This document shows positions 4 through 11,412 of a stretch of DNA of 11,663 nucleotides, piece by piece. This DNA is from Candidatus Heimdallarchaeota archaeon (GTDB lineage Archaea > Asgardarchaeota > Heimdallarchaeia > Heimdallarchaeales > Kariarchaeaceae). The notes under the pieces are model-generated. The model made no database searches. It was not told where the DNA came from and saw only the letters and a program-made list of their open reading frames with translations. The stretch spans positions 1 to 11,663 of the forward strand of contig JAOUKW010000097.1 in assembly GCA_029882335.1 (NCBI GenBank), given 5' to 3'. Positions within the stretch are counted from its first letter, which is position 1, and each line of letters starts with the position of its first letter. Position numbers and translations under genes: made by a program.

Positions 4-2139
4 ATGAACAAGAAAAGATTCCCACATAGGGAATTAGAACCACTAATACGTGAATTATGGGAAAAAGAACATATCTATGCACATGACAAGCTAAATGGAA
101 ATAAACCATATATCATTGATACTCCCCCTCCCTATGCAAATGGTCAATTGCATCATGGTCATGGGATGAGTTATACTCATATTGATATAATTGCAAGGTA
201 TCGAAGACATTTCCAACCGGTGATCTTTCCTCTTTGTTTTGATGACAATGGATTACCAACAGAGAAATTTACAGAGAAGAAGTACAATATAACTCTTGGA
301 AATTATCCAAGCAATTTCACTGAACTTTGTCATAATGAGGCATCTAAATCAATTGAAACTCAGATAGAACAATTTTCTGCTCTTGGTATGTCGTTCAGTG
401 ATTCTATTGCATACAGAACATACGATGAGAGAAGTCATAGAATAACACAAAAGAACTTCATTGAGTTATACAATAAAGGCTTGATTACACGTCAATTGGA
501 ACCCCAATTATATTGTATTACCTGTAGAACTGCCTTATCTATGGCAGATTTGGAAACAGCAAAAAGAGAATCAGAATTACTGTACCTTAAATTCCCTACG
601 TCAAATGGAGAATACATTCTTATCGCTACAACGCGACCAGAACTATTAGAAGCTTGCGTTGGAATATTTTTTCATCCAGATGATATTCAAATGGTAAAGA
701 CGATATCAATATTTCATCCACTTACAGGATTGCCCCTACCAATGTATACAGACGATAGAATAGATATGTCATTTGGGTCAGGTATCATGATGTGTTGTAC
801 ATTTGGAGATCAATTGGATTTACAATTATTCAGAGAATATAGTCTAGATTTAATATCTATTATTGATTATGATGGTTTGTTTAATTCTAAATCACAGCTT
901 CTCAACGGATTATCAATTTCAGAAGGAAGGGAAATAATGATTCAATATTTAAAAGATAAAGAAATAATAACCTCAAGAAATAAAATTATTCAAGATGTAG
1001 CTACCTGTGAAAGATGTAAAACACCAATAGAGATAATACTATCTAAACAATGGTCTTTGAATATTTTATCACTTAAAGATGAGTTATTGGAGTTGAAAAA
1101 ACAGATCAAATGGTATCCTCAATATATGGAAATAAGACTTGAAAATTGGATTAGAGGTCTTAGGTGGAATTGGATTATTTCAAGACAGAGAAAATATGGT
1201 ATTCCTATTCCTGCATTTTATTGTAATAAATGTGATAATATACTTTTTCCTTCAATCTCTGAACTTCCTGTTGACCCAAAATTGTCAATACAAGCATTAT
1301 CAAAATGTAAATCTTGTTATTCTGGAGTATATATTGCTGAAACAGATGTTTTTGATACTTGGATGACCAGTTCATTAAGTCCTCAAATTATTAAAGATAT
1401 TTATTTTCCAGATGATGAAGAGTTGATATTTGATCTCAGACCACAAGCACATGAAATAATTAGAACTTGGACATTCTATACTATGTTTAAAGCATATACT
1501 TTGAATGGAAAGAAACCTTGGGAATCAATAATGTTATCTGGATGGGGTTTAGGATTTAAAGAAAAGGGAAAAAGAAAACAGAAAGCATCCAAATCAAGTG
1601 GTTCAGGCACCAATCCATTAAACATAATTGATGAATATGGTGCAGATGTTTTTAGATACTGGAGTAGTATGGCTAGACCTGGAAAGGATCAACATTTAGA
1701 TGAAAAAATTCTAATTCGTGGTCGGAAATTAGTAACAAAATTATATAATGCTTGTAAGATAATTTTAATACTTCGAGATCGAGTAAAGAAAAATAATTTT
1801 GAGATGATAAGCGAAATCTCGAATATCATGCAATTAGAACTGCAAGATGTAAAACATTATTACAAAGAGCAAATGGATGAATTCAATTATACAGATGCTT
1901 TGAAAAAAGTAGAACAATCATTTTGGAAGATATACTGCTCCAATTATATAGAACAATTAAAGAAAATGATGGATATATCGCTTCAAGAATATAATATTTT
2001 AATTAAATGTTTTTTCGATTATTTATTGCTATTTTCCCCATTTTTACCCTTTATAACAGAGTATCTAAATTTCATAATTTCCACTGATGTAAAAAACGAT
2101 GTGAATTATTCTTCAATCCATTTACTTCAGTTTAATTGA
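4..2139 (+). CDS. valS: valyl-tRNA synthetase (class Ia aminoacyl-tRNA synthetase, archaeal-type, compact 711 aa)
   Basis: Full ORF with ATG at 4. The HIGH motif reads PPPYANGQLHHGH (HHGH at nt 151-162). The KMSKS-type motif reads KASKS (nt 1582-1596) and is followed by NPLNIIDEYGADVFRYW. The CP1 editing domain is flanked by CxxC knuckles (CITC from nt 514, CERC from nt 1006). It contains ATTRPE and GSGIMMCCTFGD, which resembles the archaeal ValRS GTGxVMxCTFGD motif. WNWIISRQRKYGIPIP matches the DWxISRQR box. The choice of Val over Ile or Leu rests on motif recall only. Confidence 0.72.
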   Translation: MNKKRFPHRELEPLIRELWEKEHIYAHDKLNGNKPYIIDTPPPYANGQLHHGHGMSYTHIDIIARYRRHFQPVIFPLCFDDNGLPTEKFTEKKYNITLGNYPSNFTELCHNEASKSIETQIEQFSALGMSFSDSIAYRTYDERSHRITQKNFIELYNKGLITRQLEPQLYCITCRTALSMADLETAKRESELLYLKFPTSNGEYILIATTRPELLEACVGIFFHPDDIQMVKTISIFHPLTGLPLPMYTDDRIDMSFGSGIMMCCTFGDQLDLQLFREYSLDLISIIDYDGLFNSKSQLLNGLSISEGREIMIQYLKDKEIITSRNKIIQDVATCERCKTPIEIILSKQWSLNILSLKDELLELKKQIKWYPQYMEIRLENWIRGLRWNWIISRQRKYGIPIPAFYCNKCDNILFPSISELPVDPKLSIQALSKCKSCYSGVYIAETDVFDTWMTSSLSPQIIKDIYFPDDEELIFDLRPQAHEIIRTWTFYTMFKAYTLNGKKPWESIMLSGWGLGFKEKGKRKQKASKSSGSGTNPLNIIDEYGADVFRYWSSMARPGKDQHLDEKILIRGRKLVTKLYNACKIILILRDRVKKNNFEMISEISNIMQLELQDVKHYYKEQMDEFNYTDALKKVEQSFWKIYCSNYIEQLKKMMDISLQEYNILIKCFFDYLLLFSPFLPFITEYLNFIISTDVKNDVNYSSIHLLQFN

Positions 2140-3582: not shown

Positions 3583-4380
3583 GTGGAGTTTGATTGTTCA
3601 ATTGAGAAAAATAAAACACCATTTGCATCATTGGGTTTGCTTTTATTATTTTACATTATTGGGTTGATTTTCTTAGACACATCTAATTTTACTACACCGG
3701 ATACTTATAGAATGGATACATATACAATTAGAATACAAACACTTGATAGTTTTGCTTTACTTCCTGTTTTTAAAGTACAATGGTCAATATTGAGTTATTA
3801 CTTAATTCACTTTGCACCTGTTCATTACGGATATTCAGGTATGTTGCTGTTATATTATATGGTAGGCTTGGAAAAAGCTACAAATAAAAGAATTGTACTC
3901 CTAACATTTTTTGGAACCAGTATACTAACACCATTCATTTTTGGTCCTCCTCTTTTTATTTTGTCGGGTAAATATTCATTCCTTCTCAAGTTCTTTCTAA
4001 TTCAGTCTTACTATCTTGGTTCATCACCAGGTATTTGGGGTACCATTGGAATGAGTGCCCCTGTTTGCAGAAAGAGAAAATTTTTTTGGGTAGGTATCTT
4101 TTTAATGCTGATCCCGGAGTTTATCCTAAAGATAGTTGCAGGTACAGGAGATATAACTGCTAATGTCATCCACGTACTTATTTTTTTGATTACTTGGTTT
4201 GTCTCTCATAAATTTATTAAATACCATAATAATCATGGAAAATCAGGTGAATTAAAAAGAAATAGAAAAGAAGATCTACCCTATATATTTGGAATTTTAA
4301 TGCATGGGTTGATTATGATTATTTATTTTATTGACCAACTAGGTATTCTGAAGTCGAATATTTTAAGATATATTTTATAA
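3583..4380 (+). CDS. polytopic (about 7 TM) membrane protein, rhomboid-like
   Basis: 265-aa ORF with a GTG start. The first in-frame ATG (aa 44) would delete the first hydrophobic helix. About seven hydrophobic segments are visible. QWSILSYYLIHFAPVHYGYSGMLLLYYMVGLE resembles the rhomboid TM2 block (W..L...F.H....H...NM..L...G..E). YLGSSPGIWGTIG resembles the TM4 GxSGxxxGxxG block, with the candidate Ser at nt 4024-4026. ANVIHVLI provides a TM6-position His at nt 4171-4173. The 6+1 TM layout matches many rhomboids. Confidence 0.6.
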   Translation: MEFDCSIEKNKTPFASLGLLLLFYIIGLIFLDTSNFTTPDTYRMDTYTIRIQTLDSFALLPVFKVQWSILSYYLIHFAPVHYGYSGMLLLYYMVGLEKATNKRIVLLTFFGTSILTPFIFGPPLFILSGKYSFLLKFFLIQSYYLGSSPGIWGTIGMSAPVCRKRKFFWVGIFLMLIPEFILKIVAGTGDITANVIHVLIFLITWFVSHKFIKYHNNHGKSGELKRNRKEDLPYIFGILMHGLIMIIYFIDQLGILKSNILRYIL

Positions 4381-4537: not shown

Positions 4538-7500
4538 TTGAAACATCAAAAATTAACAATTAGTGTGTCTATATTTATAATATGGAGTATGTCACTCTCA
4601 GGATTGGTACCTGTTCAGAATGCTCAAGGATTTATTTCCTTGGATGCATCTAGATCTACATATCTAACCTATCTTGGTTATGATTATTTTGAATTAAATG
4701 CTATGGATGCAACTTATGATATAGCATGGTCGTTTTCGGGTTCAATAATAAAACCAGCAGCCTATGCTATGACCTATAATGACTTTGCATCTTTTGTTGA
4801 TACATATAATATACCTGCGACTGCAACAGTACTCAATGCAGGAGGTTTAGTATTTAGTGCTTCTGGGAATTTTATTCCTACCTCATCCGGTACTTGGATT
4901 ATTTTATTCCGTCATAACCAATCAGGTGTTGGGGGTGGATATGTTACGATTGCTGCAACTGCTACTCAAAACCTACCATATATTCAAAGTCATACTTTGA
5001 CAACATTGAATAACAACGCAGATGTGAATAACCTAGTTGATTCCGTGCGCATTACTTTTGATCCGAATATTGGCGGAGGTAGAACAGCAACTGCTACATT
5101 TACAGCATATTTATATGATTCAGACGATAATTATTCTGGTTTATCAAGCAGTGGATCGTTTACTTTTACCGGAACTCAAGTAAATAGTTTTCAATTAACG
5201 GTTGGCTATGTCACTGAATCTGATGACTATTACATTAAATTATATATGACCTATAATGGAGCAACCACTTTACAATTAACAACAATTGCAAATAGACTGT
5301 GGGAATTAGCAAGTCATCCATTTGTTGCATCAGCAGTGGTAGAACCGTATTCGTTTGATGGAGATGCTTCATCAGATTCGGCTAAATTTGCGATAAATGT
5401 AGATTTTAATACAGGTTACTCAGGAATAGTAGCAATTTACGCTGGGTTGTATCGAACAGGTGGCACTTTTATTAGAGGCGTCGGTTTTACTGATTATACA
5501 TTTACAGGTACAACTACAGCCGATCTTGTGAGAGTGGATTTAGGATCTGTGACTACGACATCAACATATTATATTTATTATCAGATAATTTGGAATAATG
5601 GCGTTGTCTCTGCAACATTTAATACACCTACTTTTTCATTAAATGCAGTTCAACCTGCTGCACCATTTTTACAATCCCTAACCACTACCCTCTATGATGA
5701 AGATACAGATGGAAATAATGATGGAGTTAGAGCAAATTTCAATCCTGATTTCAATGGAATGTATTCTGGTACGGCCACTGTAACTATTACACTCAGCTTA
5801 TGGAATGGTGCATCTTGGGTAACTCAAAATACACAGAGTTCATCATTCACTTTCTCTCAGCAGACTGTTGATGCATTTCAGATAGATATGGGGACTGCAA
5901 CAACTACTGGTTCTCACCGATTGTCGGGATATGTAACATTTAGTGGTACAAATAGTGCTACAGTTTCAACTGCTAGCTTCACTTTAAACGCGTATATCCC
6001 TCCGTCGCCATATATTGCAAGTTTAACCACCACTACATATGATTTTGATACTGATGGAAATATTGATAGTGTAAAAGCAAATGTCAATCCTGATTTTAAT
6101 CTTGCGTATTCTGGGACAGTAACGATTATAGCAAGCTTATATACATCTACAGGAACTCTTGTTACTTCACAAACCAGATCATATTCAACAACAGGTCAAG
6201 CTACCACGGTTTATACCATTGATTTAGGATATGTTTATACTACTGGATTATATTATGTACAAGCTCAACTTAAATATCTAAATGTATTAAAGGATACGAA
6301 GACAAGTACAAATTTCAATCTAAATGCCTATGTTCCTCCACCTGTTTTTAGATCTGTTAGTCATAGTACCTCTGATGCAGATGGTGATCTAAATGTTGAT
6401 ACACTTCAGATTAATGTTGACGCAGATTTTACACCTGGATATAGTGATAGTGTGACTATATTTGTTGAATTCTACAGACCTGATAATTCTCTAAGAAATA
6501 ATGTATCGCAAGTGGTTGTTGTTAACGGACAAGCTGTGTCTCCTGTTAGTTTTAATCTAGGTGGTGCTGATGTGAGTGGATTACATAAATACCATGCAAA
6601 AATATATTATCTTGGAGTACTTTACTCACATGCGATTGTTTCTATAGACCTAGATAAGGTAAAAGCCCCCCCAACTCTGACTGTCAATGGGGTTTATCTT
6701 TATGATACAGATAATGATCAAAATAATGACAGTGTGAATATATTATTCGATGTCGATTATGAACCTGGATACACAACTCAAGTCACAGTGAGTATAAATC
6801 TATATTCAGACTTAGGCGATTTACTCCAGTCATTCAATGTGATCTTAACGATTTATGGAAATATGGTGGATATTTTTAATGAAACAGTTTCAATTGCTCC
6901 AGGTCAGGGAGATTATTATATTACTGTGGCCTTATACCACCTTGGTTCTTTAATAGATGAACAAACTACAGCAAATTTCTTTTTAAATTCACTTTACGAG
7001 GAGCCTTATTTCTATGATTATTACTATGATCTGACAGATAATGATGATAATGGACAAAATGATGGTGTAATTGTTTATTTTGATGTTGACTATCCTGATG
7101 GTATTATTGATGATGTTATGATTATTGCTGAATTATATTTAGGAATGAATGATTTAATATCAACAATTAGTGGGAATTTTACAATAAATGGAACTGAAGC
7201 ATTGTTGAATGAATTAAACTTTGGATTTGTAACCGTAACGGGAGGTTATTTCATTAAACTTCATCTATATAAAGGTGATAATATAATAGAAAGTGTTTTT
7301 ACGTCTACATTCACTTTATACGCATATGAAGAAGCTCCTATTTTAGATCGTATAAATGTCAATCCATATCAATCTATAGGAGGTAATACAATTGATTCAG
7401 TCTCTATTTCTATATCTCCATATTTCAATATGATATCAGAAGGTTTAGTTACAATAAAAGTATTTCTCTATCACCAAACAAGTGGAACTATTATAAATTC

Positions 7501-7828
7501 GAATACCGATCAGCAGACAATTACAGATACTGCAATCACAATATCCTATGATTTAGGCAAAACTACAAGAGATGGACAACACTATGTCTTAGTTGAATTA
7601 TTTTATTTATCTACAACAAATCCAGATGTATCCTTGACGAGTAGTATATTCAATCTTGAATTAGGGCAATCATCGAATCCATCATCATCTAGTAGGAATC
7701 AAATAAGTCAAGATGTAACTGATGAAGGCACCAATTTAAACTATCCTTCATTTTGGGTATTCATCCTATCTTTTGGTGTTTTTGTCCTTGTAAAAAAAAG
7801 TCTTATCAATAAAATTAGGAAAAATTAG
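4538..7828 (+). CDS. secreted, C-terminally anchored cell-surface protein (S-layer/adhesin-like) with 8 tandem ~112-aa beta-rich domains
   Basis: 1096-aa ORF. The N-terminal Sec-type signal is MKHQKLTISVSIFIIWSMSLSGLVPVQNAQ|G. A unique ~116-aa head domain follows, then eight tandem domains. These are followed by a Ser-rich linker (GQSSNPSSSSRNQ), a hydrophobic helix (WVFILSFGVFVLV) and a basic tail (KKSLINKIRKN). The composition is rich in Thr, Ser, Asn, Tyr and Gly, with no Cys in the mature part. Confidence 0.9.
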   Translation: MKHQKLTISVSIFIIWSMSLSGLVPVQNAQGFISLDASRSTYLTYLGYDYFELNAMDATYDIAWSFSGSIIKPAAYAMTYNDFASFVDTYNIPATATVLNAGGLVFSASGNFIPTSSGTWIILFRHNQSGVGGGYVTIAATATQNLPYIQSHTLTTLNNNADVNNLVDSVRITFDPNIGGGRTATATFTAYLYDSDDNYSGLSSSGSFTFTGTQVNSFQLTVGYVTESDDYYIKLYMTYNGATTLQLTTIANRLWELASHPFVASAVVEPYSFDGDASSDSAKFAINVDFNTGYSGIVAIYAGLYRTGGTFIRGVGFTDYTFTGTTTADLVRVDLGSVTTTSTYYIYYQIIWNNGVVSATFNTPTFSLNAVQPAAPFLQSLTTTLYDEDTDGNNDGVRANFNPDFNGMYSGTATVTITLSLWNGASWVTQNTQSSSFTFSQQTVDAFQIDMGTATTTGSHRLSGYVTFSGTNSATVSTASFTLNAYIPPSPYIASLTTTTYDFDTDGNIDSVKANVNPDFNLAYSGTVTIIASLYTSTGTLVTSQTRSYSTTGQATTVYTIDLGYVYTTGLYYVQAQLKYLNVLKDTKTSTNFNLNAYVPPPVFRSVSHSTSDADGDLNVDTLQINVDADFTPGYSDSVTIFVEFYRPDNSLRNNVSQVVVVNGQAVSPVSFNLGGADVSGLHKYHAKIYYLGVLYSHAIVSIDLDKVKAPPTLTVNGVYLYDTDNDQNNDSVNILFDVDYEPGYTTQVTVSINLYSDLGDLLQSFNVILTIYGNMVDIFNETVSIAPGQGDYYITVALYHLGSLIDEQTTANFFLNSLYEEPYFYDYYYDLTDNDDNGQNDGVIVYFDVDYPDGIIDDVMIIAELYLGMNDLISTISGNFTINGTEALLNELNFGFVTVTGGYFIKLHLYKGDNIIESVFTSTFTLYAYEEAPILDRINVNPYQSIGGNTIDSVSISISPYFNMISEGLVTIKVFLYHQTSGTIINSNTDQQTITDTAITISYDLGKTTRDGQHYVLVELFYLSTTNPDVSLTSSIFNLELGQSSNPSSSSRNQISQDVTDEGTNLNYPSFWVFILSFGVFVLVKKSLINKIRKN
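4976..7669 (+). repeat. eight tandem in-frame protein-domain repeats (period 110-115 codons)
   Basis: Repeat units start near nt 4976, 5318, 5663, 6008, 6341, 6671, 7004 and 7337 (aa 147, 261, 376, 491, 602, 712, 823, 934). The shared skeleton is P(Y/F)(I/L)xS.TTT.YD.DTDGN.D.V.A.(F/V)NPDFN..YSGT.T(I/V)...LY....G......(F/Y)(T/S)..G.......(I/F)(D/N)(L/M)G.....G.Y(Y/F)(I/V)...L.Y.........T..F.LNAY.PP. Units 3 and 4 are the most similar to each other. Units are diverged at the DNA level and are not identical copies. Confidence 0.85.
7733..7825 (+). other. C-terminal tripartite sorting/anchor-type signal (short motif, TM helix, basic cluster)
   Basis: The last 31 aa read NLNYPSF-WVFILSFGVFVLV-KKSLINKIRKN and follow a Ser-rich linker. 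This is the same architecture as PGF-CTERM, PEP-CTERM, GlyGly-CTERM and LPXTG type signals. The motif itself (YPSF) is not one I can assign to a named class. Confidence 0.5.
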
Positions 7829-10994: not shown

Positions 10995-11004
10995 TTTTAT
11001 ATAT
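10995..11004 (+). promoter_or_regulatory. candidate archaeal TATA box for the 5S-like RNA gene
   Basis: TTTTATATAT lies about 30-40 nt upstream of the first base of the terminal stem (11036). A second TATA-like TATAGATAAA sits at 11012-11021. The background is so AT-rich that either could be chance. Confidence 0.3.
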
Positions 11005-11035
11005 TTTCTATCTATAGATAAATTAGAGAAAAGTC

Positions 11036-11184
11036 AATTCACAAGCCGGGAAAGTTAAGCCTTGCCACGAACGATAATACTAATATACGCGAGTTTTTGG
11101 GAAACTCGTTTGCTGCAAAAGGATTGCGGCCAAAGGGCGAGGGCTACACCGGGAAACATTCCGAACCCCGATAGCTTGTGAATT
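11036..11184 (+). rRNA. circularly permuted 5S rRNA-like gene including flanking BHB-like processing stem (predicted mature body about 11053-11172)
   Basis: This is a GC-rich island in an AT-rich spacer. Segment 11124-11166, TTGCGGCCAAAGGGCGAGGGCTACACCGGGAAACATTCCGAAC, matches the 5S 5' half (helix I 5' strand, loop A, helix II, helix III and the loop C CAUUCCGAAC signature). Segment 11050-11066, GAAAGTTAAGCCTTGCC, matches what normally follows immediately (GAAGUUAAGC plus the helix II 3' strand), yet it is encoded about 100 nt upstream. Four pairings are visible. Helix II is GGCGAGG 11136-11142 with CCTTGCC 11060-11066. Helix III is CGGG 11150-11153 with CCCG 11167-11170. Helix I is GCTGCAA 11112-11118 with TTGCGGC 11124-11130, capped by AAGGA. 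A perfect 11-bp terminal stem pairs AATTCACAAGC 11036-11046 with GCTTGTGAATT 11174-11184. Confidence 0.65.
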
Positions 11185-11207
11185 TGAGTGACTCAAGCAT
11201 TGTGCAA

Positions 11208-11213
11208 TTTTTT
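11208..11213 (+). terminator. oligo-T (T6) candidate terminator downstream of the 5S-like RNA
   Basis: The TTTTTT run lies 24 nt after the terminal stem. It is preceded by small hairpins (TGAG/CTCA at 11185-11195 and GCA/TGC at 11197-11205). Archaeal RNA polymerase terminates at T-runs. Confidence 0.4.
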
Positions 11214-11412
11214 GTTTCACTTTTTTCAAGAATAGACTTAATAAGCAGCTATTGCATAAATCTCCCATTCCTTTTGGTGGTTTGATTATTTTCATTACTG
11301 ATAAGGTTTGGTTACAAAGTGTATGAATTCCTGATGCATTGTAAACCATATGAATTTTTGAGCATTATAAATTATAATAATCAATTTGTATATAAATAAA
11401 TAAATAACAACA

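What the first reader, a model, noticed from the sequence alone, without database searches (positions are those of the whole stretch)
11036..11184. Canonical-geometry bulge-helix-bulge motif flanks the permuted 5S and would restore the native junction by circularisation
The flanks fold into five consecutive elements. The outer helix is 11 bp (11036-11046 with 11174-11184). A 3-nt bulge AUA (11171-11173) sits on the 3' strand. A 4-bp central helix pairs CGGG 11047-11050 with CCCG 11167-11170. A 3-nt bulge AAA (11051-11053) sits on the 5' strand. The inner helix pairs GUU 11054-11056 with AAC 11164-11166. This is the 3-4-3 hBHBh' substrate of the archaeal tRNA splicing endonuclease, with the same handedness as tRNA introns and rRNA processing stems. 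Cutting inside both bulges and ligating (RtcB-type) would release a circle of about 120 nt, about 11053-11172. Its junction would read CCGAACCCCGA.AGUUAAGCC, almost the canonical 5S CCGAACCCGGAAGUUAAGCC. The 5' flank CCGGGAAA (11046-11053) is an exact copy of the helix III 5' strand CCGGGAAA (11149-11156). The leader therefore acts as a decoy partner for CCCG before cleavage, and the true helix III can form afterwards. The product could stay circular or be opened in the AAGGA loop to give normal ends. The latter would be analogous to permuted tRNA maturation via a circular intermediate.
Basis: partly seen in the sequence, partly recalled or inferred. Interest (0 to 1): 0.9.

Follow-up and report, generated by a model that had tools for sequence, protein, structure and literature searches.

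The report
Permuted 5S rRNA gene with splicing motif
In a group of Asgard (Heimdall) archaea the 5S ribosomal RNA gene is written back to front and flanked by the cut-and-join signal normally used for tRNA introns, so a normal 5S RNA can form only after cutting and joining into a circle, which also explains why no 5S gene could be found in these genomes.

Summary
11036-11046 pairs perfectly with 11174-11184 (11 bp). Next come CGGG/CCCG (4 bp), the bulges AAA and AUA, and GUU/AAC, giving a canonical 3-4-3 hBHBh' motif with tRNA-intron handedness.

The enclosed RNA is a circularly permuted 5S rRNA: the 3' part comes first, helix I is capped by AAGGA, and the 5' part follows. Rfam misses it. A covariance model built only from the in-silico circularised sequences matches ordinary 5S genes end to end, including through the junction (107.7 bits, E = 1e-30).

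The host is a Heimdall-type Asgard archaeon. I found 26 further permuted 5S loci, all in Heimdall or unnamed archaeal MAGs and metagenomes. These include two copies in each closed Heimdallarchaeum genome, where the authors reported that no 5S gene could be predicted.

In the window's subgroup the BHB covaries strongly: 94% of cells are paired, 14 of 18 pairs change on both sides, and 0 of 500 shuffles reach this. The leader "decoy", the helix III 5' strand and their shared 3' partner change together.

The most likely mechanism is EndA cleavage followed by RtcB ligation, giving a 120-nt circle (11053-11172). Whether the circle is the mature form is unresolved. No RNA data were available. I found no prior report.

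The parts
10997..11004 (+). Putative archaeal TATA box (TTTATATA), about 32 nt upstream of the processing stem
   Evidence: Read directly from the sequence. Comparable A/T-rich octamers lie 20-35 nt upstream of the outer stem in most related loci. Inferred only; the transcription start is not mapped.
11036..11046 (+). Outer helix h, 5' strand (leader): AAUUCACAAGC
   Evidence: Exact complement of 11174-11184. All 11 pairs show changes on both sides across 5 lineages, and 90.9% of cells are paired.
11047..11050 (+). Central 4-bp helix H, 5' strand (CGGG). This is the 'decoy' copy of the helix III 5' strand.
   Evidence: Pairs with 11167-11170. 100% paired in 5 lineages, with 3 of 4 pairs compensatory.
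11051..11053 (+). 5' bulge AAA. Predicted EndA cut between 11052 and 11053.
   Evidence: A 3-nt bulge is conserved (AAA or UAA) in all group 1 loci. The cut position is inferred from the established rule for BHB cleavage.
11053..11172 (+). Predicted excised and circularised 5S rRNA (120 nt). In genomic order it runs helix III 3' lower strand, helix II 3' strand, loop E and helices IV-V, helix I 3' strand, cap, helix I 5' strand, helix II 5' strand, helix III and loop C.
   Evidence: Folds as 5S after re-ordering. Model R1, built from re-ordered sequences, hits canonical 5S genes end to end. Rfam gives only a partial hit in genomic order.
11112..11130 (+). Helix I closed by a cap: GCUGCAA (11112-11118), AAGGA (11119-11123), UUGCGGC (11124-11130)
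   Evidence: Helix I covaries among relatives, and in group 2 the cap is a UNCG tetraloop.
11150..11170 (+). True helix III: CGGG (11150-11153), 13-nt loop C AAACAUUCCGAAC (11154-11166), and CCCG (11167-11170). The CCCG strand is shared with the BHB central helix.
   Evidence: 100% paired with 3 compensatory pairs. Loop C carries the universal CCGAAC motif (alignment).
11171..11173 (+). 3' bulge AUA. Predicted EndA cut between 11172 and 11173.
   Evidence: AUA is invariant in all 5 group 1 lineages.
11174..11184 (+). Outer helix h, 3' strand (trailer): GCUUGUGAAUU
11185..11196 (+). Small trailer hairpin (UGAG-UGA-CUCA region) directly after the stem
   Evidence: Present in the MFE fold of the extended precursor. 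Function unknown.
11208..11226 (+). Two T6 tracts (11208-11213 and 11221-11226), a likely archaeal oligo-T terminator
   Evidence: Oligo-T tracts follow the 3' stem strand in most related loci. Inferred.

Best explanation
The locus is a self-contained transcription unit encoding a circularly permuted 5S rRNA.

The primary transcript, roughly 11028-11213, starts with a leader whose last four paired bases (CGGG) copy the helix III 5' strand. The leader and trailer form an 11-bp stem. The leader copy pairs with the real helix III 3' strand (CCCG). Together these present a canonical 3-4-3 bulge-helix-bulge.

The archaeal splicing endonuclease EndA cuts after the second nucleotide of each bulge, at 11052|11053 and 11172|11173. 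The RtcB-type ligase joins the new ends.

The product is a 120-nt circle in which CCCG is released from the decoy and pairs with the true CGGG (11150-11153). This restores continuous 5S connectivity across ...CCGAAC-CCCG-AUA-GUUAAGCC.... Helix I stays closed by the AAGGA cap.

I consider it most likely that this circle, or a very lightly processed form of it, is the functional 5S rRNA of the ribosome.

Shown: the motif, the permutation, the 5S identity after re-ordering, conservation and covariation, the archaeal host, and the absence of a recognisable canonical 5S in closed relatives.

Inferred: cleavage, ligation and the final topology.
For: - Geometry and handedness are exact.
- Precursor fold: z = -4.74.
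- 5S identity: re-ordered sequences fold as 5S, and 18 of 33 consensus pairs are compensatory.
- Model R1, built only from re-ordered sequences, scores 107.7 bits (E = 1e-30) on a haloarchaeal 5S, 83.5 bits on another, and 29-64 bits on bacterial 5S genes. These full-length hits span positions 1-121 and the printed alignments run across the junction. Two further hits are 5'-truncated at a locus end. The unrearranged window gives only split hits of 24.3 and 22.1 bits.
- Orthologues: patterns built from 5S-internal motifs in permuted order, with no flank information, found 11 genomic and 15 metagenomic permuted 5S loci, all archaeal.
- BHB covariation in the window's subgroup (5 lineages): 94.4% of cells paired against 26-50% in slid registers, 14 of 18 pairs changed on both sides, 0 of 500 shuffles as high.
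- Cognate flanks pair at 9-11 of 11 positions, against a mean of 5.65 for non-cognate combinations.
- Three-way covariation of decoy, helix III 5' strand and helix III 3' strand.
- Host: the ValRS is identical to a protein NCBI names as from a Candidatus Heimdallarchaeota MAG, and its nearest relatives are Asgard.
- Asgard archaea, including a Heimdallarchaeote, carry (alpha-beta)2 EndA with the L1 insert (PMC5829648).
[quoted passage not shown] Each genome holds two permuted copies.
- Rfam finds no 5S at gathering score in the window or in 11 related loci.
- Promoter-like and oligo-T elements bracket the stem.
Against: - There is no RNA-level evidence: no junction reads and no mapped ends.
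- endA and rtcB were not located in this particular MAG.
- Canonical cleavage gives a 3-nt AUA bulge in helix III where 5S normally has AA. The product is near-canonical, not identical.
- The inner helix h' is only 3 bp and is not formed in the MFE fold.
- Covariation rests on five lineages in the window's subgroup.
- The larger Heimdallarchaeum subgroup has a more complicated, non-canonical flank, so the simple one-step scheme may not be general.
- I could not scan whole genomes for a divergent canonical 5S copy. Absence rests on the authors' statement.
Confidence: 0.8

Rival explanations
1. Circular intermediate, then re-linearisation. After EndA and RtcB act, the circle is opened in or near the helix I cap (AAGGA, 11119-11123). 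The mature 5S is then a normal linear molecule, as in permuted tRNA maturation. This shares the first two steps with the best explanation.
For: [quoted passage not shown] The cap lies exactly where canonical 5S has its ends (alignment). The group 1 caps (AAGGA, UAUUAU) are not especially stable loops.
Against: - In the sister subgroup the cap is a 4-nt UNCG tetraloop (UUCG, UACG) on a covarying 7-8 bp helix I. This looks selected for stability rather than for cleavage.
- No archaeal nuclease is known that would open such a cap. tRNA reopening relies on RNase P and RNase Z recognising the tRNA body.
- Mature circular 23S rRNA in archaeal ribosomes is now documented (PMC12918454).
Confidence: 0.25
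2. Cleavage without ligation. EndA, or other nucleases trimming the stem, release a linear permuted 5S whose ends lie in the helix III bulge. The RNA works as a 'nicked' 5S held together by helices II and III, like the permuted mitochondrial 5S of brown algae, where the final product is permuted.
For: The break falls in a bulge rather than in a helix, so a nick could be tolerated. Permuted mature 5S rRNAs exist in stramenopile mitochondria (PMC4267664).
Against: Known EndA products with ends held by a BHB (tRNA exons, introns, pre-16S and pre-23S) are ligated in archaea (PMC3326292, PMC10515664). The strict 3-4-3 geometry and invariant AUA bulge are what a splicing substrate needs, not what simple trimming needs. 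After the cut only 2-3 bp of lower helix III would hold the new 5' end.
Confidence: 0.1
3. Non-functional or artefactual. The locus would be a rearranged 5S pseudogene, a misassembly, or a mobile-element inverted repeat that happens to flank 5S fragments.
For: Rfam does not call it. Nothing else supports this reading.
Against: - Identical sequence in three independent assemblies.
- 26 further loci across divergent lineages with the same permutation point.
- Compensatory changes throughout the 5S helices and the flanking stem.
- Two copies in each closed genome that otherwise lack a detectable 5S.
- Flank sequences differ completely between lineages but keep pairing. That is RNA-level selection, not a conserved DNA repeat.
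Confidence: 0.02

Closest known systems
[quoted passage not shown]
   Same: The 3' half is encoded upstream of the 5' half. The transcript termini form a BHB. EndA-type cleavage plus ligation restores the native junction. The locus is an independent small transcription unit.
   Different: The substrate is 5S rRNA, not tRNA. The native ends are linked by a tight 4-5 nt cap on helix I rather than by a spacer removed by RNase P and tRNase Z, so the circle may be the end product. The junction lies in the helix III bulge and needs a leader 'decoy' copy of a helix strand.
[quoted passage not shown] PMC10515664, PMC7714728), and mature circular or permuted 23S rRNA (PMC12918454, PMC7758197)
   Same: A leader-trailer stem carries a 3-4-3 BHB. 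EndA excision and ligation produce a circular rRNA species. For 23S the circle can persist in ribosomes.
   Different: Those genes are collinear with the mature RNA, and circularisation joins the natural ends. Here the gene itself is permuted, and ligation creates an internal bond that is essential for the fold. Current reviews state that circularisation applies to 16S and 23S 'but not 5S rRNAs' (PMC12918454).
Permuted mitochondrial 5S rRNA of brown algae and other stramenopiles (Rfam mtPerm-5S; PMC4267664)
   Same: A 5S rRNA whose gene order departs from the canonical order. Standard 5S models miss it or score it poorly.
   Different: In the organellar case the mature RNA is itself permuted: helix I is replaced by a terminal hairpin and the ends lie at the three-way junction. 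No BHB, splicing enzymes or circularisation are involved. The permutation point is different. No Rfam family reached its gathering score on the window.
Low-level circular reads of ordinary 5S rRNA in Sulfolobus solfataricus and Halobacterium (PMC3326292)
   Same: A 5S-sized circular RNA species in archaea.
   Different: Those come from collinear genes by joining the natural helix I ends. They are minor, were not validated by RT-PCR and may be degradation-related. No BHB is involved, and circularisation is not needed for the fold.

Membership tests
EndA substrate: canonical hBHBh' motif | Two 3-nt bulges on opposite strands separated by exactly 4 bp | tested here: met
   AAA (11051-11053) and AUA (11171-11173) flank CGGG/CCCG. 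The same 3-4-3 spacing is found in all 5 group 1 lineages.
EndA substrate: canonical hBHBh' motif | Flanking helices h and h', with each bulge 3' of its own central-helix strand (tRNA-intron handedness) | tested here: met
   h is 11 bp (11036-11046 with 11174-11184) and h' is GUU/AAC, 3 bp. h' is invariant, so it carries no covariation signal, and it is absent from the MFE fold.
EndA substrate: canonical hBHBh' motif | Structure conserved by compensatory change in orthologues | tested here: met
   94.4% of cells paired, 14 of 18 pairs changed on both sides, 0 of 500 shuffles as high, slid registers 26-50%.
EndA substrate: canonical hBHBh' motif | Host encodes splicing endonuclease and RtcB ligase | not testable with these tools
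   Only 34 kb of this MAG is available and it contains neither gene. At lineage level, Asgard archaea including a Heimdallarchaeote have (alpha-beta)2 EndA with the L1 loop (PMC5829648).
EndA substrate: canonical hBHBh' motif | Cleavage in both bulges and ligation observed | not testable with these tools
   No transcriptome data can be searched.
5S rRNA (Rfam RF00001) | Collinear match to the 5S covariance model above the gathering score | tested here: not met
   No hit at gathering score. The permissive scan gives 19.4 bits against a cut-off of 38, and only the 3' part truly aligns.
5S rRNA (Rfam RF00001) | 5S fold (helices I-V, 12-13-nt loop C with CCGAAC, GUUAAGC, UGGGAA) and homology to canonical 5S | tested here: met
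   Met after in-silico circularisation. Individual folds and the consensus show the 5S fold. Model R1 matches canonical 5S genes over positions 1-121 at up to 107.7 bits.
Permuted genes matured via a circular intermediate (permuted-tRNA type) | 3' part upstream of 5' part, with a BHB formed by the transcript termini | tested here: met
Permuted genes matured via a circular intermediate (permuted-tRNA type) | Intervening sequence between the native 3' and 5' ends that is removed to re-linearise the RNA | tested here: inconclusive
   Only a 4-6 nt cap closes helix I: AAGGA here and UNCG tetraloops in relatives. No processing signal is recognisable.
Organellar permuted 5S (mtPerm-5S) | Helix I replaced by a terminal hairpin, ends at the three-way junction, mature RNA permuted, match to the Rfam model | tested here: not met
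   No Rfam family reached its gathering score. The permutation point here is the helix III bulge, and a BHB is present.

The most novel reading that the evidence does not exclude
In at least two families of Heimdallarchaeia, close archaeal relatives of eukaryotes, the only 5S rRNA genes are circularly permuted. The ribosomal 5S rRNA is then an obligately spliced, covalently closed circle made by the tRNA-splicing machinery. In the Heimdallarchaeum-type loci, maturation may need two successive BHB reactions. The first circularises a precursor. That ligation creates a second, canonical BHB, which removes a ~32-nt hairpin 'intron'. This would be the first rRNA gene that is both permuted and intron-containing.
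Probability: 0.45. Interest if true: 0.92.

Novelty: new variant of a known kind. Interest (0 to 1): 0.84.

Why it matters
1. It gives a concrete, testable answer to a published gap. The closed Heimdallarchaeum genomes, and probably many Heimdall MAGs scored as lacking 5S under MIMAG criteria, do have 5S genes, but standard models cannot see them.

2. It would extend BHB/EndA/RtcB processing to the one rRNA currently said not to use it. It would also be the first case I could find in which an rRNA gene is permuted at the DNA level in a cellular, non-organellar genome, making ribosome biogenesis strictly dependent on the tRNA-splicing machinery.

3. If the circle persists, it would be the first obligately circular 5S rRNA, complementing the recent discovery of circular 23S in archaeal ribosomes.

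4. The leader 'decoy' that masks a helix strand until ligation is a neat example of a programmed RNA refolding switch.

5. In practice, a permuted-5S covariance model would improve the annotation and quality scoring of Asgard genomes.

Tried and rejected
- **Rfam at gathering score**, on the window and on 11 related loci: no 5S hit. This was informative, because it explains why the gene goes unannotated.
- **ARAGORN on the window**: no tRNA or tmRNA, so this is not a permuted tRNA.
- **Assembly artefact**: rejected, because three independent assemblies are identical.
- **DNA-level inverted repeat or MITE**: rejected, because the flank sequences differ completely between lineages yet keep pairing.
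- **Minus-strand ORF 11080-11349 (89 aa)** overlapping the gene: no Pfam family, so it is treated as spurious.
- **False hits in the first genome scan**: 25 of the 36 hits were canonical 5S followed by a chance TCCGAAC, tandem bacterial 5S genes, or coding-sequence chance matches. They were discarded after inspection, and several were reused as canonical 5S controls.
- **MAFFT alignment of re-ordered sequences**: it mis-registers loop C by one base between the two subgroups. BHB statistics were therefore computed on a genomic-order alignment of the window's subgroup only, in which the flanks aligned without gaps.
- **Fixed canonical register applied to the Heimdallarchaeum subgroup**: it failed. 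Those loci need an offset register and contain an inserted hairpin.
- **Literature**: one query ('circular 5S') timed out. The retry with 'circular 5S rRNA' found 0 papers.
- **Not possible**: I could not scan whole genomes for canonical 5S or for endA and rtcB, because the collection scans were exhausted and only loci are held. No RNA-seq data could be searched.

Full report
**1. The observation**

Reading the window and extracting the elements by script confirms every coordinate in the finding.
- AATTCACAAGC (11036-11046) is the exact reverse complement of GCTTGTGAATT (11174-11184).
- CGGG (11047-11050) pairs with CCCG (11167-11170).
- AAA (11051-11053) and ATA (11171-11173) are unpaired.
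- GTT (11054-11056) pairs with AAC (11164-11166).
- Each bulge lies 3' of its own central-helix strand, which is the arrangement of tRNA-intron and rRNA-stem BHB motifs.
- CCGGGAAA at 11046-11053 is an exact copy of 11149-11156.

The precursor 11030-11190 folds at -54.9 kcal/mol against -38.0 +/- 3.6 for dinucleotide shuffles (z = -4.74, 0 of 200 as good). The MFE structure contains the outer helix, the central helix and the AUA bulge. Shuffling the two flanks gives even a minimal version, a 4-bp central helix plus an outer helix of at least 4 bp in this register, only 32 times in 200,000.

The sequence is identical in an independent Logan assembly (L002) and in a JGI metagenome contig (L054). 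The arrangement is therefore not a misassembly.

**2. The enclosed RNA is a permuted 5S rRNA**

Rfam finds nothing at gathering score in the window. A permissive scan gives 5S_rRNA at 19.4 bits against a cut-off of 38, and only model positions ~58-120 truly align, to 11054-11121. The 5' part of 5S follows at 11124-11170, after a 5-nt cap (AAGGA, 11119-11123) that closes helix I.

Joining 11172 to 11053 and writing the sequence from the cap gives a 120-nt RNA. On its own it folds into helix I, helices II-III with a 13-nt loop C, and helices IV-V.

The decisive test was a covariance model (R1) built only from 12 such re-ordered sequences.
- It matches ordinary 5S genes that happened to be in the fetched loci. 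Full-length hits cover positions 1-121, and the printed alignments run across the junction. Two hits are 5'-truncated at a locus end.
- Scores were 107.7 bits (E = 1e-30) on Halegenticoccus, 83.5 bits on Halobellus, and 29-64 bits on bacterial 5S genes.
- On the unrearranged window it gives two split hits of 24.3 and 22.1 bits.

The circularised order is therefore the canonical 5S order.

**3. Host and context**

The window is the last 11.6 kb of a 34-kb metagenome contig. Its valine-tRNA ligase is 100% identical to a protein that NCBI names as from a 'Candidatus Heimdallarchaeota archaeon' MAG. The nearest relatives, at about 50% identity, are from Odin-, Prometh- and Hodarchaeales MAGs. The host is an Asgard archaeon.

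Kaneta et al. 2018 report that Asgard archaea, including a Heimdallarchaeote, carry the (alpha-beta)2 EndA with the L1 insert that confers broad BHB specificity (PMC5829648). I could not look for endA or rtcB in this MAG itself.

A TTTATATA box lies at 10997-11004, about 32 nt before the stem. T6 tracts follow at 11208-11213 and 11221-11226. Equivalent A/T-rich boxes and oligo-T tracts bracket the stems in most related loci. These look like independent mini transcription units.

**4. Related loci**

I searched one genome per species (GTDB) with AGTTAAGC-N33-42-TGGGAA-N48-66-TCCGAAC. This pattern uses universal 5S motifs in permuted order. Apart from the leading A, which is the last nucleotide of the 5' bulge, it contains no flank information.
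- Of 36 hits, 11 are true permuted 5S genes and all 11 are archaeal.
- They are Heimdallarchaeota MAGs, three unnamed archaeal MAGs, and two copies in each closed genome of Ca. Heimdallarchaeum aukensis and Ca. H. endolithica.
- The other 25 are ordinary or tandem 5S genes, or chance matches.

A more specific permuted-order pattern run on JGI metagenomes gave 15 hits, all true permuted 5S genes.

None of the 11 genomic loci contains a 5S that Rfam recognises. For the two closed genomes, Wu et al. [quoted passage not shown] The permuted genes explain this gap.

**5. Conservation of the BHB**

The loci fall into two groups. Group 1 comprises the window, L012 and its near-identical metagenome copies, L048, L027 and L041. 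It keeps the strict 3-4-3 motif.

| Element | State across group 1 |
|---|---|
| Central helix | CGGG/CCCG, CGGA/UCCG or CAAG/CUUG |
| 5' bulge | AAA or UAA |
| 3' bulge | always AUA |
| Outer helix | 8-11 bp, largely unrelated in sequence between lineages |

On a genomic-order alignment whose flanks aligned without gaps:
- 94.4% of cells form standard pairs, against 26-50% when the 3' partners are slid by 1-3 columns.
- 14 of 18 pairs have changes on both sides.
- 0 of 500 column shuffles reach the observed values.
- Cognate 5' and 3' flanks pair at 9-11 of 11 positions, against a mean of 5.65 for non-cognate combinations.

The same 3' strand also pairs 100% with the true helix III 5' strand, with compensatory changes at the same three positions. 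The leader copy, the helix III 5' strand and their shared partner therefore co-evolve. This is what the 'decoy' model predicts, and it has no explanation in 5S function alone.

**6. Mechanism**

The rule that EndA cuts after the second nucleotide of each 3-nt bulge is established knowledge for BHB substrates. Applied here, it releases 11053-11172 (120 nt). Ligation of the 2',3'-cyclic phosphate and 5'-OH ends by RtcB, as for tRNA exons, introns and pre-16S/23S, gives a circle with the junction ...CCGAAC-CCCG-AU|A-GUUAAGCC.

Once the leader is gone, CCCG can pair with CGGG (11150-11153) and the 5S fold forms.

The junction differs from canonical 5S only in a 3-nt AUA bulge where 5S normally has AA. 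In group 2 the predicted junction is exactly canonical (CUGA-AA-GUUAAGCC).

All of this is inference from structure and from known enzymology. No RNA data could be consulted.

**7. Circle or re-opened?**

Helix I is closed by AAGGA here, by UAUUAU or CUCGA in other group 1 lineages, and by UNCG tetraloops (UUCG, UACG, including C(UUCG)G) in most group 2 loci. Helix I shows compensatory changes beneath the cap: GCGA/UCGC, GGAU/AUCC, GCGC/GCGC, GCAU/AUGC and GGCA/UGCC.

A stable, conserved cap argues that it is a permanent feature, so the mature RNA would remain circular. Mature circular 23S rRNA is now documented in archaeal ribosomes (PMC12918454). Re-linearisation as in permuted tRNAs, or a nicked unligated form, cannot be excluded.

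**8. The Heimdallarchaeum-type loci (group 2)**

These share the permutation point and the proximal module C(G/A)GG-AWA-GUU. Their 5' flank has the layout: outer helix (7-11 bp), NCAG, a 3-nt W-rich spacer, a covarying hairpin, 1-2 nt, then the proximal module.

Simulating a first cut and ligation at the distal module (NCAG/CUGR plus the outer helix) creates a second, canonical BHB in every locus parsed.
- The central helix is 4 of 4 paired.
- The bulges are 3 + 3 nt.
- The flanking helix is the hairpin itself.
- This second BHB would remove a 31-32-nt 'intron' and leave the exact canonical junction.

The script parsed five of the eight loci. The other three have an AUA bulge that my regex missed, and by eye they follow the same layout.

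A one-step reaction on a three-way-junction substrate by the broad-specificity EndA is the alternative. Four loci (L011 type) have a simple one-step 3-4-3 motif. This part is a hypothesis only.

**9. Prior knowledge**

Full-text searches found no report of a permuted or BHB-flanked archaeal 5S gene.
- A 2026 paper states that circularisation applies to archaeal 16S and 23S 'but not 5S rRNAs'.
- Described 5S maturation routes use tRNase Z, FAU-1 or an A/U-motif endonuclease.
- Danan et al. saw minor, unvalidated circular reads of ordinary 5S rRNA.
- Permuted mature 5S exists in stramenopile mitochondria without any BHB.
- The mechanistic precedent is the permuted tRNA gene.

The library lacks most subscription journals, so the absence of a prior report is not proof.

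**10. Verdict**

This is a new variant of a known kind of system: BHB-dependent circularisation of a permuted gene, applied for the first time, to my knowledge, to 5S rRNA. It is restricted so far to Heimdall-type Asgard archaea, and it resolves a published 'missing gene'.

Noticed in passing
L007, L042, L043, L053, L055, L016/L032/L047, L015, L035 (5' flanks, about 60 nt upstream of GTTAAGC): Heimdallarchaeum-type permuted 5S loci carry two tandem 'H4 + 3-nt bulge' modules separated by a covarying hairpin. A simulated first ligation creates a perfect second BHB that would remove a ~32-nt intron-like piece. This suggests a two-step 'permuted plus intron' maturation.
   Followed up: partly
L016:5527-5617 (-) compared with L032:6822-6896 (+): The tRNA-His about 150 nt downstream of the permuted 5S is 91 nt in Ca. 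H. endolithica but 75 nt in Ca. H. aukensis. The difference is a 16-nt insertion (GCAGAAAACCATAGAG-like) 3' of the anticodon arm. It is probably a non-canonical intron, and so an EndA substrate in the same genome.
   Followed up: partly
window 11171-11173 / predicted junction: In the window's subgroup the ligated 5S would have a 3-nt AUA bulge in helix III instead of the near-universal AA, and loop C is 12 nt in three of the five lineages. The sister subgroup restores exactly AA with a 13-nt loop.
   Followed up: partly
Helix I caps: window 11119-11123; L042, L053, L055 and others: Helix I is capped by UNCG tetraloops (UUCG, UACG, C(UUCG)G) in most Heimdallarchaeum-type loci, but by AAGGA, UAUUAU or CUCGA in the window's subgroup. 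UAUUAU is shared by the divergent lineages L012, L048 and L027.
   Followed up: partly
window 11080-11349 (-): An 89-aa ATG ORF on the opposite strand overlaps the 5S gene. It has no Pfam match. It is almost certainly spurious, but a gene caller could annotate it as a hypothetical protein over the unrecognised RNA gene.
   Followed up: partly
window 11185-11196: A small hairpin (stem UGAG/CUCA, loop UGA) lies directly after the 3' strand of the processing stem, before the oligo-T tracts. L012-type and L041 loci instead extend the stem with a second, distal helix that also shows compensatory changes (for example GGATCTG/CAGATCC against GGATCTTTA/TAAAGATCC).
   Followed up: no
window 4538-7828 (+) and 3583-4380 (+): A 1096-aa ORF and a 265-aa ORF have no Pfam or NCBIfam match. 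They sit between a histidine phosphatase and a TPR-histidine kinase.
   Followed up: no
window 4-2139 (+): The valine-tRNA ligase is short (711 aa against about 800-860 for typical ValS models). It scores 737.1 bits, just under the 738-bit cut-off of NCBIfam PRK13208. Its Asgard relatives are similarly short (709-744 aa).
   Followed up: no
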